Below the pieces are notes generated by a model. That model saw nothing but the letters and a program-made list of their open reading frames with translations. It was not told where the DNA came from and made no database searches. Both the position numbers and the translations under genes were made by a program. From Scenedesmus sp. PABB004 (Eukaryota), in the NCBI GenBank assembly GCA_014905635.1, contig CM026548.1:1-64000 (forward strand): DNA of 64,000 nucleotides. Reading direction: 5' to 3'. Every line of letters starts with the position of its first letter. The first letter of the stretch is position 1. Shown here piece by piece: positions 48,343-56,664 of the stretch.

Positions 48343-51300
48343 TCAGCGCGCCTCCTTGCGCGCGGAGAGCAGCATCGCCGCGTACGTCGCGCCGTGCATG
48401 GCGGCGAGGTAGCCGAGCAGGATGGCCACGCTGTGGCCAAAGGGCCGCCCAAACGCAAAGTAGTCGGCGATCGCGCCGGTGTTGACCGCGCAGCTGGCGG
48501 CGGTGGGGCGGACGTGGGCGTGAGCGGCGGGGGCGTGAGCGGCGGGGGCGTGAGCGGCGGCCGCGCGGCGTGCGCGGGCGCCCCGGCCGCGCCGCGCCGC
48601 GCGCGCGCCGCACTTTGGCTGCGGGCGCGCGAGCGAGTTGAGCACGCCGCGCTGGCTGGGGTTTAGGCCCGGGAAGGCGGTGAGGATGAACCCCAGGTAC
48701 GCGTCGTCCAGCCCCGCGCTGCAGTCGAGGGCGACCGACGTGAACTCGTTGAGCACGAGCGCCTCAAAGCCAAAGTACAGCGCGCTCACGTAGCGCAGCT
48801 GCGTGAGCCAGTGGTTGTACGTGACCTGTGGGTGTGGGTGGGCGGGTGTGTGTGTGTGTGGGTGGGTGTGTGCGCGTGTGCTGGGGTGTTGCGCGTGTGC
48901 TGGGCGGCGGCGGCGGCGAGCCCTGCCCCCTCGTGCGCGGCCGGCCGCGTGCGCGCCTCGCTGAAGTTGACGAAGAAGGTTGACACCAGCATCTGCACCG
49001 TCGTCCACACGATGCTCAGCATGAATGCAGTGTCCTGGTTGGGGGCAAAGATTGCGCACGCGTGCAGCACCTGCGCAGGGGGCGGCGGCGCGGGGCGGGG
49101 TTCAGCGGGGCCACGCGGCGCGGGCGGCGGTGGGATGCGGCAGGCGCGGTCGGGGGCGGGGGCGCGAGGCGGCCGCCCGCCGCGGCCGCCCCCGCCGCCC
49201 CCGACCGCGCCTGCACGCTGATGAGGTACACCAGCGTCACGACCGCGCCAAACTTGACGATGTGCACGCCGCCGGGGCGCATGCCGGCCATGCCGTACAG
49301 CGTCCACGCAAAGCACAGCGCGCACACGACCTGGAACGGCGTCGTCACGCACACCTGCGCGGCTTGGCGGCGGCGGCGGCGTGAGCGGGGCGCGGCAGGG
49401 CGCGGCGCGCATGGCGGCCCCGGCCGCCGCGCTGCCGCCGCCGCGGCCGCGGCCGCGCCTTGGCTGCGTAGTATGCTGCGGGCCTGTAGAGCTTTGCGCT
49501 CGCGTCTGCGAGGTAGAACTTTTTGTCGCTGGTGTAGAGGCCCATGGAGATGTAGGGCATGAGCACCACGAAGGAGAGGGAGACGTAGCAGAGGTTGAGC
49601 CGCGCGCGCAGGCTGCTCGCGTCGGGGGGCATGCCGTAGTAGAGCAGGCCGATGAGGATGGCGACCCACGTGAACGTCAGCGCGCTGTCGTGGCCAGGCG
49701 GCGCGGCCAGGGGGCGGACGGGGGGAGGGGGGGTGCGTGTGGGTGGTGTGGTGGGCGGTGGGTGGGCGGTTGAGCGAGTGCGCGGGGAGCAAGGAGGGCT
49801 GAGCGGCGGCGGCCGAGCGCGCGCCGCGCGCGCGCCGCGCGCCGCGTGCGCCACGCACCGCGCGGCGACGTCAAAGGGGTTGCGCGTGACGAGGATGAAC
49901 TCCCTGCTCAGGAGGCTGAGGAACTGGCGCCCCGCGCCGGTGGGGTACTTGGACCGGCGGTCGGGGGCGAGCTCGGCCAGGCCCTGGCCCTTGGACACGA
50001 TGCTGCGCACGCGGCCCGCGAGCCGGCCGCCCGCGGCAAAGCTGCCCGGCGCCGGCGCGTCCGGCGCCGGCACAAACGACTCGGTCTGCGCCCACGGCGC
50101 GGCGGGCGCGCGCGGGGCGGAGGGTTGGCCGGCGCGCCCGCGCGGCCCGGCCCGGCCGCCCCGGCGGCGCCGCCTCGCCGAGCTTGCCGTCCCCCCAACC
50201 GCCCACGCACGCGCAGGTAGTGCTCTCTGAACGCCTTGGCCGCCGCCGCGAGGTCGTCCCTGGTGCGCATCGTCGCGCCGTAGTACTTGGCCGGCTTGGC
50301 AAACCCCACCGCGACCAGGTCCAGCGCCCAGTCGGACGCGACGCCTGCGCGGCGCGCGCGCGCGGCGGCACGCTCGGCGGGGGGCGCCGGCGGCAGGGCA
50401 CCGGCCGCGCGTGGCCCGCGGGCGCAGGCTCTGCGGGCTCTGCGCGCGCGCGCACCCTGCTGCAGCGGGTCGTGTGTGTAGCCGAGTGAGCCAAACCAGG
50501 CGGTCATGCCCTCGCGCTGTCCGTGATACATGAGCCGCCCGCCCGCGAGCAGCGTGACCTTGTCAAACATGGCCCAGATCGCGGCGCGGGGCTGGTGGAT
50601 GGTCGCGACGATGATGTGCTCCGCCGCGCGCGCCATGCGCTGCAGGTGGCCCATCACGCTCAGCGCGGCAAAGCTGTCCAGCCCGCTCGTCGGCTCGTCC
50701 AGGAACAGCACGCCCGGCGCGGCGAGGATGCCGGCCGCGATGGACAGCCGCTTGCGCTCGCCACCGCTCAGGCCGCGCATCATCAGCCCGCCCGGCAGCG
50801 TGCCGCCGACCTGACGCGGGCGGCGGCCAAGGTTTAGGGTAAGGAGTTCAGGGCGGCCGGCGACCGGCGGCGGTCGGCGGCGGTCGGCCGCGCGGCCTGC
50901 CCCCACCCCCGCCCCAGCGCGACCCGCGCGCCCGCACCAGAGTGTGCTGCGCGTGGCCGAGGCCGACCGCGTCGAGCACCTCGGACAGGCGCTCCGCGCG
51001 GCGCGCCGTAGGCCAGGTGGCGGGCAGGATGACGCGCGCGTAGAAGCGCAGCGTCTCGGCCGTCGTCATGGTCGGCACAAAGTTGTCCTCCTGCAGGCGC
51101 GTGGGCAGTTGTGAGCGCGCGTGGGCCGCGGCGTGCGCGCGAGGCGCGGCGCCGCCGCCTGCCGGCCTCCCTGGCCGCCTCGTAAGCGCGCGCGTGGCGC
51201 CAGCACAGCCCCTCTCTACACTCCTCGGTCACACACGCACGCACGCACGCACCTGCGGGACGTACGCGGTCTGCCGTATGAAGCTGCGCCCCGCGGGGCG

Positions 51301-52172
51301 GCCGTTGAGCAGCAGGCGGCCGCTGAGCGCGCCGACGCTCTTGCGCATTGCCAGTATGTCCATGAACGTGCTCTTGCCCGCGCCGCTGGGGCCCATCAGC
51401 GCCTGCGTCGACGCCGCGCCGCGCCGCCGCGCAGGGCGGCGCGCCACGTCAGGTCGGCGGCACGCTGCCGGGCGGGCTGATGATGCTCGGCCTGAGGCGC
51501 CGCGCCCCCGCGCCGCGCGCCGCGCGCCTGCATCTCGCCCGGCGCCGCCTTGCCCCAGACGTCGGCGAGGACGACCTTGACCAACCCGTGGCTGCTGTAC
51601 GCGCAGCCCATGCCCTGCCACTCCATGGTCAGCCGCTCCGGCGCGACGCTCATGTGCTGTCGCAGCGTCGAGCACGCGACCGGCGACACGTCCGGCACGT
51701 CGTCCTCGTCGTGCACGCTGTCGCTGTCGCTGCCGCTGCCGCTGCCGCTGCCGCTGCCGCCGTCGCCGTCGCACTCTGCGCCTGGAGCGCCGGGCCCCTC
51801 GCCGCGCTCAAACTTGGACTGCCCGTCCTCCTGGTCGCGCTGCGGCGCCGCGTCGGGCCGCGCGGCCGCGGCGCACGGCTCCGGCGGCGAGCCTACGCGC
51901 GGGCGCGGCCAGGGCGGCGAGGTCGGGTCACGCGGCCGATGGAGCGGCGCCGCGGCGGCAGGCGCGGCCGCCGCACCTGGGCCGTCCAGGCTCGCCTTGC
52001 GCGCGCCATCGAGGGAGGTCCGCCGCGCGTGCGCATGCTTCTTCCTTTTGCGGCGAAACAGCAGTGGCACGCCCTCCAGCGCCCCCAGCTTGAGGGTCTT
52101 CGCAAACCAGAAGAGCGCAAAGACGTGCGCGAACGCCGCCACCGGCACCCACAGCGCTACGATCGCGACCAT
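48343..52172 (-). CDS. ABCG (White-type) half transporter; multi-exon
   Basis: Walker A ALMGPSGAGKSTFMDILA, AYVPQ, signature RGLSGGERKRLSIA, Walker B FLDEPTSGLDS, TIHQP, ABC2 membrane domain (LRYVSALYFGFEALVLNEF). Confidence 0.93.
50767..51496. repeat. Inverted repeat pair, 50-bp arms at 50767-50816 and 51447-51496 (49/50 match)
   Basis: Reverse complement of 50767-50816 is cgtcaggtcggcggcacgctgccgggcgggctgatgatgcgcggcctgag. 51447-51496 differs at one base (..atgctcgg..). Confidence 0.93.
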
Positions 52173-52350
52173 GCCGGCCGCGCACGGGGGCCTCGCGGAA
52201 GGGCGCCTGGGTCGGGTGCCACGCGGGTCAGGGAGCAGGAGAGAGGGCGGGGCTGGCAGGGGGCGCGGCGCAGCGGCGTCACCAGCGGCGGCAGCGCCGC
52301 TGCTCCGGCGGCGGCCCGCCGCACCTGGGCCGTCCAGGCTCGCCTTGCGC
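51968..52350. repeat. Direct duplication, 35-bp identical core (51968-52002 and 52316-52350) with diverged flanks
   Basis: ccgccgcacctgggccgtccaggctcgccttgcgc occurs twice; it encodes RKASLDGP plus a splice donor on the minus strand. Confidence 0.88.
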
Positions 52351-52669
52351 CCGCCGCCGAGGAAGGTCCGGGGCGCCGGAATGGGGCTGGGGCGGCGCAA
52401 TTCAGCCGCGCGGCGGGGCGCCCTCGGCAGCAGCAGTGATGGCTGGCGCGCGCGTGCCGGGGCTGCGCGCGGCAGGCGCGTCGGTCGCGCTGGGCGGCGT
52501 CGACGCTGAGCTCTGCTCGACGCGGCCGCGCGGCTCGCGTTGGCCCGGGCGCAGCGCCGCCGCGCGCCGCCGCACGTCACTCGCGCGCCCGGCCCACGGC
52601 ATGACGCTGCGACGCCGTGCGGCGGCGCTCGGCCGGGCGCCCGTTACTACAGCCTCGCCGCCCCACGCC

Positions 52670-54802
52670 TCAGTACGGCGCGCCGTCGCCTCCGCTCAGT
52701 GCCGCGCCGTCGCACGCCTTCTCGGCGCTCGACGGCCGCGACGGCGGCTTGGCCGGCGGCGCGCCCGCGCCCGGCGGCGCGGGCGACAGCACCTGCTGCG
52801 CCGCGCAGCGGTGCTCCGCGAGCGGCTGCCGCTGCGGCGGCGCTGGCGGCGCCGCCTGCTGCGGCGCGCCGGCCGGCGCAGCCGCCGGCTGCGCCTGGAT
52901 GCGCCGCTGGGCGGGCGCTGCGCCCGGCCCCGCCTGCTGCTGCGCCGCCGCGGGCGGGCCGCCGCCGACAGGGCCCTGCTGCTGCGCCGGCGGGAGCGGC
53001 GCCGGCGCATAGCCGTCCGCCGTCCCCGGCGGCTGGCCCAGCCGCAGCATGCCGGGCGGCGCGCCCGGGGCGTCGCCGGCCTGCGCCGCGGCCACAAACT
53101 CCTGGGCAGCGACCAGCGCGGTGTGTATCTGGCAGCGGCGGCGGCGGCGGCACGCAGCGGCGTCGGCGGCGCGCGGCGGGCGCAGCAGCAGCCCGCGGCC
53201 GCACCCGGGCGCGGCGCCGCGCGCGCTCACCGAGCGCGCGATGGGCAGGCCCTCCCGTGCCGCGGCGGGCACGAGCAGCGCGCCGAGCATCGCCCGCTTG
53301 TCCAGGCCCAGCACGCGCGGCTGCCACGCGCAGCTCGCCGCGAGCGCGGGCGTCCAGCGCTCGGGGCCGAGCAGGTCCTGCGCGAGCTCCTTCAGCCGCG
53401 ACTGCGTGCGTGCAGGTGGGCAGGCGGTCGGCGGTCGGCGCGCCGTCGCGCGGCGCGGCGCGGGCGAGTGAGCGCGGGCGCCCGCCGTCTGCGCGCGCGG
53501 GCGGCGGCGGCGCGCGCGCGTGCCTGGTCGCGCTGCGTTGCGAGCAGGTTGACCAGCAGGCCGAGCCAGCGCTCGTAGCCCGCCGCGTCGGCGAGCAGCA
53601 GCGCGCGCATGAGCTGCGTGCCCGCCTCCTTGCGCCGCCACACGTCGTCGTCGGGCGCCGGCGCGGGCAGACGCAGCGGCGCGCCGCCGCCGGCGGCGGC
53701 CGCGGCCGCCGCGGACGCGCGCAGGCGCTCCGCGTCGCCGCTGAGCGCGATGGCGCTCGTGGGCGGCACGCTGCCGGCGAGCTCGGCCGCGCCCGGCTGC
53801 AGCTGCAGCCAGAGGCCCAGGCCCGCGTGGTAGAGCCAGCCGGAGCCGTCAGTCAGCACCGCGACGTGCGCGCGCGCGCCGTGCCCGCCGTCGCCGCCGC
53901 TGACCCAGGCGTCGTGCAGCCCCGTGCCGGGCGGGCAGGCGGCGAGCAGCGGCGCGAGGCTGACGGGCGGCGTGGGGCCCATGAGCCGGGCGTTGGCGTT
54001 GAAGTCCAGCAGCAGTAGCTCGCCGTCGGCCGACACCACCTGCAGCTGGTACCGCCCATCGCCGCACGACAGCCGCACCGGCGGCGCGCCCAGCGCGAGC
54101 GGCGGCAGCAGCATGGTGCCGCCGGGCCGCCACGTGTGCAGCAGGCCGGCCGACGTCGCGGCGGCCGCAAAGTAGGCGCTGCCCGCCACCGCCACGACCT
54201 GCGGCACGGCGGCCGGACGGCCGCGCGCTCGCGGCGCGCGCAGGCGCGGCGCGCGGCGGAGCGCGGCGCGGCGGCGCCGCCCGCACCTCGCCCTGGACCT
54301 TGTCCCGCCAGCTCACGTCGCCGCCGACCTCGAACACCACCTCCGCGACCCGCGCGCCGCCAGCGCCCGCGCCGTTGGCCGCGGCCAGCACCACGGGCAC
54401 CACCTGCCCGCCCGCCGCGCCGCCGGGCCCCTGCGGCCGCGGCTGCACCACGCGCACCGTGGTCAGCTCTGCCTCGAGCCGCGACCACACCGGCGGCGCG
54501 CCCAGCAGCCAGCCACCGCCGGGCGCGCCGCCGCCGCCGCCGCCGGCGCGCGCCTGGCGCAGCAGCTGCTGCCCTGCGCCCTGCCCGCCGGCCGCTGCGG
54601 GGCGCTTGGCGAGCAGCCCCGCCGCCGGCGCGGGCTGCACGCGCTTGCGGCTGGCAGCCGCGGCGCCCGCCGCGGCGCCCGGCTGCTGCAGCGTGCCGCT
54701 GGTGATGCCCGCGCCCTGCGGCATCAGCCGCGCCTCCAGCAGCCCCGCGCTGCCGCCGCCGCCGGCGCCGCCGCCGACCGCTTGCGGCGTGAGCCGCCGC
54801 GG

Positions 54803-54833
<31 letters not shown>

Positions 54834-56664
54834 ACGGGCGCGGGCGCGGGCGCGGGCACGGGCGCGGGCAGCGCGGACAGCGCCGGCGGTGCCGCGCCGC
54901 CCGACGCCGGCCGCGCCGCCGCAGCTGCGCCGGCCGCCAGGCGCGCCAGCTCCGCGTCCTCCACCGCGCCGCCGCCGCCGCCGGCGCCGGGCGCGCCGGC
55001 GCGGCCCGCGGCCGCGCCGTGCGGCCCTGCCGCGCCCGCCGCCGCTGCCGCGCCGTACTCCGCCTCCATCACCGCCCGATACTCCGCCTCGCTCAGGGAC
55101 CGGCCGAGCTCCGCCTCGGAGAACCTGCGGCCGGGCGGCCGGGCGCGCGCCGCTCGGCGCCCGGCGCGGCCCCGCCCGGGCAGCACAGCGCGGCAGCGCG
55201 GCGGCGCGGCAGCAGCGTGGGTCGCGCGGTGGCGTCCGCGCGTCGGCGGCGCCGCCTCACCGCACGACGGTGATTGAGTCGTCGGTGCTCGCGGCAACAA
55301 GCGTGTAGCCGTCCGGCGTCCACGCGAGGTCGACCACCGACGCGGCGTGCAGCTGCTGCAGCACCACCAGCGGCAGCGGGAGGTCGCTGCACCACACGCT
55401 CGCGCCCTTGTCGTTGCTGCCGGCGGCGAGCACAAAGCTGTGCGTGTCCTCAAAGCCGGCGCACTCGGCGCCGCCGCGCTGCGCGGCGCCGCCGCCCGGC
55501 TCGCCGCCGTCCGCCTGCGCGCGCACGCTGTCGGCCTGGGCGCTGCGCGCCGCGGTGAGAGCGCGGGGCGCGTAGAAGAGGCGCGGGTTGGCCACCACCG
55601 CGACGACGGCCGACTTGTGGCCGACCAGCTGGACCTGCTCCCAGCTCTGCCGCTTGAGCAGGCAGACCGTGGGCTGCCCCCCGCTCACGGCGCTCGCCGC
55701 CATGAGCTGCTCGCCGTCAGGGCTCCAGCTGATCCTGCGCGCCGCGGCGGCGCAGCGCGGGCGCGCGGGCGTGCGCGGGCGTGCGCGTCGGCGCGTGTGC
55801 GCGTGCGCGGCGCCGCCCCGCCCGGGGTCCCCCTGCCCGCGCCGCCAGGCACGCCCCCCCCCCCCCCTGCTGGGCCTCACTTGAGCTTGAAGGCCATCTC
55901 TGGCGCGCGGTCAAACACGTCGCGCACGTGCGCGACGGGCGCCCAGTCCTTGGCGACGTCCCAGACCTTGACGCCGTTGCGGCCCTGGCTCGCGAGGTAG
56001 CGGCCGAGCGGGTCAAACGCGAGGCCCTTGACCCAGCCGTTGTGCACGTCGCGCCGGATCGCGTGCAGCGGCGCCGCGGCGCCGTCGGGGCCGACGCTGT
56101 GCAGCAGCACCGTGCCGTCCATGGAGCAGCTCGCGAGCACGGCGTCCCCCGGCGCCCACGCGAGGCCGGTGACGTCGAGCGAGTGCCCGCGCAGCGCCGC
56201 GGCGACGCGCCAGTTCTCGAGGTTGACAAACGCCGCGCCGAGCTTGGCGGTGCCGGGGCCCGGCGCGAGGCGGTACAGCAGGACCGCGTTGTCGTTGCCG
56301 CCGCTCGCCAGCAGCGCGCCGCCGTGGCTGAAGCGCGCCGTCAGCACGCCGCCCTGGTGCTCCGACAGCGTCGCGAGCAGCTTGGGCACGCCCGGGTCGG
56401 ACTCCGCCGCGGGGTCGAGGATGGGCAGCAGGTTCCACACCTTGATCTGCGGCGCTGTGCCGCACGTCACCAGGCGCCGCCCGCCCGGGTGCACGTCCAC
56501 TGCCATGATGCCCTCCGGGTCTGCGGACGCGCGGCGGCGGCCGCCCCGCCGCCGGCTCGGCGCGGCGCGCGCCGTTCGAGCGGCGGGCGCGCTGCTGCCG
56601 CCGCCGCACGGGCGCGTCGGCGCTCACGGTGGTGAGCCACCCATTCCGGCTTGTCCACAATCAT
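52670..56664 (-). CDS. HIRA: Histone H3.3 chaperone HIRA (WD40 + B-domain + C-terminal Hira domain)
   Basis: MIVDKPEWVAH, AVDVHPGGRRLVTCG, PKLLATLSEH, NLENWR..LRGHSLDVTGLAWAP..LASCSMD, WVKGLAFDPLGRYLASQ, SWSPDG, VVDLAWTPDG, B-domain-like RRLTP/RKRVQP, RLKELAQDLLGP. Confidence 0.92.

What the first reader, a model, noticed from the sequence alone, without database searches (positions are those of the whole stretch)
50767..51496. Intron carries a 50-nt antisense copy of a downstream 3' splice site and exon start in the ABCG gene
Seen: intron 51403-51527 (GC donor) contains 51447-51496, a 49/50 reverse complement of 50767-50816. That target is the last 6 nt of a later intron (its CAG acceptor) plus 44 nt of the exon encoding VGGTLPGGLMMRGLS, leading into the ABC signature. 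The antisense arm makes up 40% of its intron and supplies a branch-point-like CTGAC about 45 nt from that intron's acceptor. Inference: in pre-mRNA the arms could form a stable duplex that loops out two exons (including Walker A) and masks both a branch point and an acceptor. This could act as a structural splicing switch or dsRNA/siRNA source. It could instead be a recent inverted templated insertion from DNA break repair.
Basis: partly seen in the sequence, partly recalled or inferred. Interest (0 to 1): 0.7.

Follow-up and report, generated by a model that had tools for sequence, protein, structure and literature searches.

The report
Backwards exon-start copy in algal intron
An intron of a green-algal ABCG transporter gene carries a near-perfect 50-base backwards copy of a splice site and exon start 630 bases further on; it is most likely a young DNA-repair copying scar that is predicted to pair with the original in the RNA, with nothing yet showing that it controls splicing.

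Summary
In detail: 51447-51496 is the reverse complement of 50767-50816 at 49 of 50 bases, inside a 125-nt GC-AG intron of an intact ABCG gene. The intron position is shared with two paralogues that lack the copy, so the copy entered an older intron. A survey of 1,034 kb of the genome found one more case of the same build, in a sucrose synthase gene (67 nt, 2.2 kb apart), five short perfect hairpins, and nothing at that score in three distant control bands. In the two cases all 4 exon-part substitutions fall on amino-acid-changing positions, so they likely arose in the copies; 4 of 5 substitutions break pairing and none is compensated. That fits decay after a fold-back or template-switch event. 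The duplex is predicted to be very stable (-119 kcal/mol) and would cover the acceptor and a CTGAC motif, but no RNA data or orthologous intron could be had. The scan has noted the same build in animal genes. Verdict: real, probably neutral, a known kind of mutation; a splicing switch is not excluded.

The parts
51447..51496 (-). Intronic arm: 50-nt antisense copy of the downstream acceptor and exon start; one difference at 51487
   Evidence: 49 of 50; best ungapped match to six paralogous loci only 28-41 of 50, so the source is this gene
50767..50816 (-). Template: last 6 nt of intron 50937-50811 (CGTCAG) plus first 44 nt of the signature exon
   Evidence: exon matches ABC_tran positions 107-137
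51403..51527 (-). Host intron, 125 nt, GC donor, phase 0 (EMQ|ALMG); position shared with paralogues L002 and L003
   Evidence: contiguous EMQALMGPS in relatives P0002, P0004, P0008
51447..51452 (-). CTGACG: branch-point-like motif and inner end of the inverted repeat; candidate priming microhomology (inferred)
   Evidence: sequence; only CT[GAC]AC motif in this intron; predicted unpaired before the template is transcribed, paired afterwards
51435..51506 (-). Imperfect 11-nt direct repeat around the arm (51506-51496 and 51445-51435, 10 of 11): possible duplicated target site
   Evidence: 27 of 1575 (1.7%) control position pairs in other introns do as well; one test, chosen after seeing the sequence
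51253..51402 (-). Exon with Walker A (GPSGAGKST), 150 nt, inside the predicted loop
   Evidence: ABC_tran positions 15-66
50938..51090 (-). Exon, 153 nt, inside the predicted loop
   Evidence: homologous residues in P0002, P0004
50811..50937 (-). Intron, 127 nt, whose acceptor the arm would cover; position shared with paralogues L004 and L007
50456..50810 (-). Exon with ABC signature LSGGE, Walker B and H-loop
48343..52172 (-). ABCG half-transporter gene with an intact predicted reading frame
   Evidence: P0001 maps exon by exon; ABC_tran and ABC2_membrane; start codon placed by the N-termini of P0004, P0008 and paralogues

Best explanation
The arm is a real 50-base inverted copy of this gene's own acceptor and exon start, most likely made by one recent fold-back or template-switch event during DNA break repair or replication, and probably tolerated rather than selected. 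Inferred steps: a 3' end in the old intron annealed through the CTGACG/CGTCAG match at the inner ends of the repeat to the same strand about 630 nt away, copied about 44 nt outward, came off and was rejoined to the intron, adding to or replacing intron sequence. In the pre-mRNA the arm is predicted to pair with its template at equilibrium. The gene would still splice normally if the host intron is committed or removed before the template is made. Any effect would be leaky intron retention, which gives early stop codons.
For: Shown: 49 of 50 identity with all 13 synonymous sites unchanged, and much poorer matches to paralogues. The intron predates the arm: L002 and L003 have an intron at the same junction without the copy. 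The intron is not a repeat family: no other match above 85% except its template. The genome makes local inverted copies: in 1,034 kb (28% masked) 14 inverted pairs within 4 kb score 30 bits or more, against 0 in each of three distant bands; among them are a second exon-junction copy in an intron and 5 short perfect hairpins. The second case (L059:3385-3449 against 5633-5699, sucrose synthase, 61 of 67 columns) is decaying: 3 exon-part changes all at amino-acid-changing positions, all 4 substitutions A/T to G/C in the copy, plus a 2-nt insertion. Over both cases 4 of 5 substitutions break a pair, 1 gives G.U, 0 are compensated. Published fold-back and MMB-TI products have this build: inverted copy of a nearby template, microhomology at the priming end, 0-5 bp at the other (PMC11724301, PMC8421209; passages read).
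Against: The ancestral intron is unknown, so microhomology and insertion versus replacement are inferred. Five substitutions are few. In both cases the copy spans a splice junction and ends on a splice signal of its host intron, which a selected RNA element would also show. A -119 kcal/mol duplex over an acceptor may not be neutral.
Confidence: 0.8

Rival explanations
1. The arm, however it arose, works as a splicing gate. If the host intron is not spliced before the polymerase has gone about 630 nt further, the arm locks its own branch point onto the downstream acceptor, both introns are retained and the transcript is lost to early stops.
For: Predicted duplex -119 kcal/mol, pair probability 0.97; whole-region fold about 50 kcal/mol better than with a shuffled arm (8 shuffles); CTGAC predicted open before the template exists. 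Retention of either intron gives an early stop. The second case also joins a junction to a splice signal. Masking of splice sites and branch points by RNA structure is established (PMC10790352, passages read).
Against: Any 50-nt inverted copy at 74% GC would fold this well, so the fold is no evidence of function. The one difference is an A.G break; the second case is losing pairs. Paralogues lack the element. 29 of 42 introns have no CT[GAC]AC motif in range, so the motif may not be needed.
Confidence: 0.09
2. The duplex is cut by a Dicer-like enzyme, giving small RNAs against the gene's own exon or destabilising the pre-mRNA.
For: The genome has Piwi-domain matches at three places and RNase III matches at three. 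In Chlamydomonas DCL3 cuts hairpins in introns and UTRs of coding RNAs (PMC4817775, passages read).
Against: The 630-nt loop holds three splice junction pairs, unlike a compact precursor stem (inference). No Rfam match near a gathering score. Only two 21-nt turns of duplex.
Confidence: 0.04
3. The arm is an assembly or sequencing artefact, such as a chimeric fold-back read.
For: No raw reads could be laid; the only holder listed shares 0.12 of the words and no listed piece spans the arm.
Against: The copy is short, returns to an intron that ends in a normal acceptor, and differs from its template at one base; a second, older case shows the class is real in this genome.
Confidence: 0.04
4. The inverted copy created the intron (intron gain) or belongs to a mobile intron family.
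For: The arm holds the intron's only CT[GAC]AC motif; without it 75 nt remain, below the shortest (84 nt) of 42 introns read. GCAGGCGC occurs at both intron ends.
Against: L002 and L003 carry an intron at the identical junction. No further copies of the intron in the genome. CAG|GCGC is the usual junction word here.
Confidence: 0.02

Closest known systems
Fold-back templated inverted insertions at double-strand breaks in yeast (PMC11724301, passages read) and MMB-TI templated insertions (PMC8421209, passages read)
   Same: Short inverted copy of a nearby template, unspliced, with a candidate microhomology at the inner (priming) end and little at the other; size close to the 20-50 bp modelled.
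   Different: Template 630 nt away rather than within about 100 nt; no ancestral allele seen; enzyme unknown; a fixed germ-line-type change in an alga.
Snap-back SD-MMEJ (PMC5728401, passages read)
   Same: Priming at an inverted repeat on one strand and rejoining at a new microhomology; in the sucrose synthase case the copy stops exactly at GCGCAG, the commonest acceptor word here (18 of 42).
   Different: Described within about 30 nt of the break.
Short-range template-switch mutations, four-point model (PMC9435742, passages read)
   Same: Short inverted copies that replace sequence, 96% intergenic or intronic.
   Different: Mean 12 bp, searched within 150 bp of context; here 50-67 nt over 0.6-2.2 kb.
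Long-range pre-mRNA pairings that block splice sites or loop out exons (review PMC10790352, passages read)
   Same: Predicted helix covers an acceptor and a branch-point-like motif and encloses two exons.
   Different: One arm is coding exon; no conservation, compensation or splicing effect shown.
Intronic hairpins cut by DCL3 in Chlamydomonas (PMC4817775, passages read)
   Same: Long near-perfect duplex in a coding transcript of a green alga with Piwi and RNase III genes.
   Different: Arms 630 nt apart across introns and exons; no small-RNA evidence.

Membership tests
Templated inverted insertion (fold-back / MMB-TI / SD-MMEJ) | Insert is an inverted copy of a nearby template on the same molecule | tested here: met
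   49 of 50, 630 nt apart, own gene the best source
Templated inverted insertion (fold-back / MMB-TI / SD-MMEJ) | Sequence is new relative to an ancestral allele | tested here: inconclusive
   Paralogues have the intron without the arm; no orthologous intron obtained
Templated inverted insertion (fold-back / MMB-TI / SD-MMEJ) | Microhomology at the junctions | tested here: inconclusive
   CTGACG/CGTCAG lies at the inner end, but cannot be told from copied sequence without the ancestor; 12-nt extension within chance
Templated inverted insertion (fold-back / MMB-TI / SD-MMEJ) | Template within about 30-100 nt, as in the model studies | tested here: not met
Templated inverted insertion (fold-back / MMB-TI / SD-MMEJ) | Dependence on Pol theta, Pol delta or end joining | not testable with these tools
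   needs genetics
Regulatory long-range RNA pairing | Stable duplex over splice signals | tested here: met
   prediction only
Regulatory long-range RNA pairing | Conservation with compensatory changes | tested here: inconclusive
   No orthologue; 0 of 5 substitutions compensated in two cases, 4 of 5 break pairs
Regulatory long-range RNA pairing | Alternative splicing that depends on the pairing | not testable with these tools
   no RNA holder listed
Intronic miRNA/siRNA precursor | Compact stem-loop | tested here: not met
   loop 630 nt
Intronic miRNA/siRNA precursor | Small RNA reads from the stem | not testable with these tools
   no small-RNA data
Introner / mobile intron | Many similar copies at unshared positions | tested here: not met
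   single copy; position shared with paralogues

The most novel reading that the evidence does not exclude
This alga carries tens of intronic antisense copies of the host gene's own exon-intron junctions, each anchored on a splice signal of the host intron (branch point in the ABCG gene, acceptor in sucrose synthase). Repair scars of this kind become kinetic splicing gates: the intron must be spliced before, or despite, pairing with its template, so elongation rate or helicase activity sets how much transcript is lost to retention.
Probability: 0.08. Interest if true: 0.65.

Novelty: new member of a known kind. Interest (0 to 1): 0.24.

Why it matters
As a scar it is minor: it adds an algal example of an inverted templated copy made over 0.6-2.2 kb, longer than the loops in the model studies read. 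Its use is as a natural test: a perfect 50-bp GC-rich helix over an essential acceptor in a gene that looks intact should either be outrun by co-transcriptional splicing or cost transcript, and that can be measured. If such copies were shown to gate splicing, they would give a one-step mutational origin for long-range regulatory RNA pairings.

Tried and rejected
No RNA holder listed for 48500-52400; the only run, X1 (freshwater metagenome, share 0.12), is contigs. Laid at 80% likeness, it holds short pieces of a close relative (for example 51234-51408, 175 of 189 letters laid, 6 differences; 51974-52263, 11 differences), but none of the 8 pieces shown spans the arm and 113 pieces were not shown: no verdict on presence in relatives. 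Seven listed differences that I attributed to those pieces and checked are all at third codon positions (21 rows not shown), a hint that the gene is under purifying selection. Metagenome search gave 34 loci, none an orthologue (best segments 32-70%). A clade-specific 27-base pattern found 0 matches in viral contigs and 0 in genome contigs. Rfam: 2 matches far below gathering scores. Intron gain and mobile-intron origin rejected. GC donor as a special feature rejected. Extension of the repeat to 62 nt rejected as chance. A copy from spliced mRNA rejected: the arm follows the unspliced intron-exon junction. A borderline 19-nt pair at C2:177564/179215 lies in coding sequence of two genes and scores like control hits; dropped. 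No sucrose synthase paralogue exists to date that intron. Paper searches: templated insertion + inverted + intron + Chlamydomonas gave 2 papers, neither on this by its listing; GC-AG introns in green algae gave nothing relevant among 8 listed. These two searches are the only basis for saying I saw no report of such algal elements.

Full report
Observation. The window starts at a TTTAGGG telomere, is about 78% GC, and is G000:C2:1-64000. The closest named relatives of the gene product are chlorophyte ABCG proteins of Monoraphidium, Tetradesmus and Raphidocelis. The pair 50767-50816 / 51447-51496 is an inverted repeat at 49 of 50, with E = 1.5e-17 in a self-BLAST of the window. The gene lies on the - strand. 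Mapping P0001 gives exons 51892-51528, 51402-51253 (Walker A), 51090-50938 and 50810-50456 (signature, Walker B), with phase-0 junctions. Relatives P0002, P0004 and P0008 read EMQAL[ML]GPS and [LIM]VGGTLPGG without a break, which supports these splice sites.

Age and source. The copy matches this gene at all 13 synonymous sites of the 44 exon bases; the six paralogous loci tested match 28-41 of 50. The one difference would turn the conserved Arg of RGLSGGE into Leu, so it likely arose in the copy; in RNA it is an A.G mismatch. Paralogues L002 and L003 have an intron at the identical EMQ|AL junction with no such copy, and L004 and L007 share the intron before VGG. So both introns are old and the arm is young. 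The intron has no other close copy in the genome. The arm follows the unspliced junction, so the template was DNA or pre-mRNA, not mRNA; these two cannot be told apart here.

Background. I scanned 1,034 kb (the window, 60 kb chosen around ABCG paralogues, the rest arbitrary blocks; 28% masked as tandem repeat) with a composition-aware score. At 30 bits or more there are 14 inverted pairs within 4 kb and 0 in each of three equally wide distant bands (same counts after gapped rescoring). The 14 are: 2 from a long terminal inverted repeat, 1 from the inverted paralogue pair on C7, 3 from a multi-copy element on C12, 1 quasi-palindrome in a tandem repeat, 5 perfect hairpins with 20-34-nt arms and 13-34-nt loops, this finding, and one more case. 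That case is in a sucrose synthase gene: L059:3385-3449, an exon end plus donor, is copied backwards as the last 67 nt of the 111-nt intron 5589-5699, 61 of 67 columns, ending exactly at the acceptor GCGCAG; it is single copy. Leaving out the window, that is 1 case in 970 kb, about 40 per genome by simple scaling, with a very wide range (about 1 to 230). Its three exon-part differences all sit at amino-acid-changing positions, 0 at 14 synonymous sites; all four substitutions are A/T to G/C in the copy; three break a pair and one gives G.U. This is the pattern of a perfect copy that decays, not of a maintained helix, though five substitutions in all are few.

Mechanism (inferred). A fold-back needs a priming match at the inner ends of the repeat. 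Here the inner ends are CTGACG and CGTCAG: the branch-point word is the reverse complement of this acceptor, the only GTCAG acceptor among 42 introns read. In yeast, fold-back insertions are primed by a 10-nt imperfect inverted match, extended a few tens of bases and captured with 0-5 bp of microhomology (PMC11724301, passages). MMB-TIs are inverted, nearby, microhomology-flanked and may replace sequence (PMC8421209, passages). In snap-back SD-MMEJ synthesis stops at a new microhomology with the other end (PMC5728401, passages), which would explain why the sucrose synthase copy ends on the commonest acceptor word. Survival gives the same pattern: only events that keep the splice signals persist. 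The spacers here are longer than in those studies. The arm is flanked by a 10-of-11 direct repeat (1.7% of control pairs; post hoc), which may be a duplicated target. A Chlamydomonas mutation-accumulation study found microhomology at 28% of deletions and does not describe such copies in the passages read (PMC9977147). Supplements of these papers were not read.

RNA consequences (predicted). The duplex is -119 kcal/mol, pair probability 0.97 at 25 and 37 C; the region folds at -529 against -474 to -489 with a shuffled arm (z = -5.3). Before the template is transcribed the CTGAC is predicted open, so the host intron has a window of about 630 nt to commit. Retention of either intron gives an early stop; skipping the two enclosed exons is in frame and removes Walker A, but needs the covered acceptor. 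GC donors (14 of 42) are ordinary, and 29 of 42 introns lack a CT[GAC]AC motif in range (44 introns tried, 2 dropped for unclear ends; boundaries are read by hand and some may be off). Piwi and RNase III domains are present in the genome, so Dicer cutting is not excluded. No RNA run was listed and no orthologous intron was reached, so function is untested.

Comparison and verdict. It works like a fold-back or template-switch templated insertion; membership is met on anatomy, open on ancestry and microhomology, and outside the usual distance. It is not an introner or a compact miRNA precursor. Earlier notes of this scan describe the same build in arthropod and vertebrate genes, mostly read as scars (unchecked, and not counted as support). 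My reading was set before that look-up. Real, probably neutral (0.8); a working splicing gate about 0.09; interest 0.24.

Noticed in passing
L059:3385-3449 and 5633-5699 (G000:C46:1003385-1005699): Second inverted exon-junction copy, in a sucrose synthase gene; it forms the last 67 nt of an intron including its acceptor and would still pair with 48 nt of exon after the template's own intron is spliced (-104 kcal/mol).
   Followed up: yes
window 52265-52376 and 51912-52028: Older direct duplication of an exon end, donor and intron start in the same ABCG gene (51 of 55 core, about 112 nt at lower identity); the upstream copy appears to give the donor of a 5' UTR intron 52324-52207.
   Followed up: partly
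window 48343-56506: The database protein P0001 fuses a HIRA-like WD40 protein and the ABCG transporter, using the duplicated piece as a bridging exon; relatives P0004 and P0008 start at the membrane segment, so this is likely an annotation error.
   Followed up: partly
G000 C2:199010-199086, C2:80304-80386, C12:110997-111056, C1:827120-827220, C1:4032717-4032795: Five near-perfect short hairpins (arms 24-34 nt); at least three look intronic, one in an ABCG paralogue. Fold-back scars or small-RNA precursors.
   Followed up: partly
G000 C1:1512218-1517159, C1:3043432-3049804, C2:867415-872452, C7:330410-334898, C7:810799-818088: Elements of 4.5-7 kb with terminal inverted repeats of 350-750 bp at 92-99% identity, unrelated at first sight in their arm sequences; probably mobile elements.
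   Followed up: no
G000 C7:796582-806046 (L002, L003): Two ABCG paralogues lie tail to tail, about 94% identical from the nucleotide-binding domain onward, introns included, but with divergent N-termini: recent duplication or gene conversion.
   Followed up: no
window 1-1559: Telomere followed by a 259-nt exact direct repeat (182-440 and 1301-1559) and an inverted telomeric tract at 443-503.
   Followed up: no
L103:about 1800-1830 and 1958-1988: In another alga's ABC gene an exon end is repeated in direct orientation inside the next intron (read by eye).
   Followed up: no
G000 C7:383662-383942: Two near-identical 106-nt copies, 175 nt apart, with ATGATGA and CTGA ends, resembling box C/D snoRNAs (motif recalled, not tested).
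   Followed up: no
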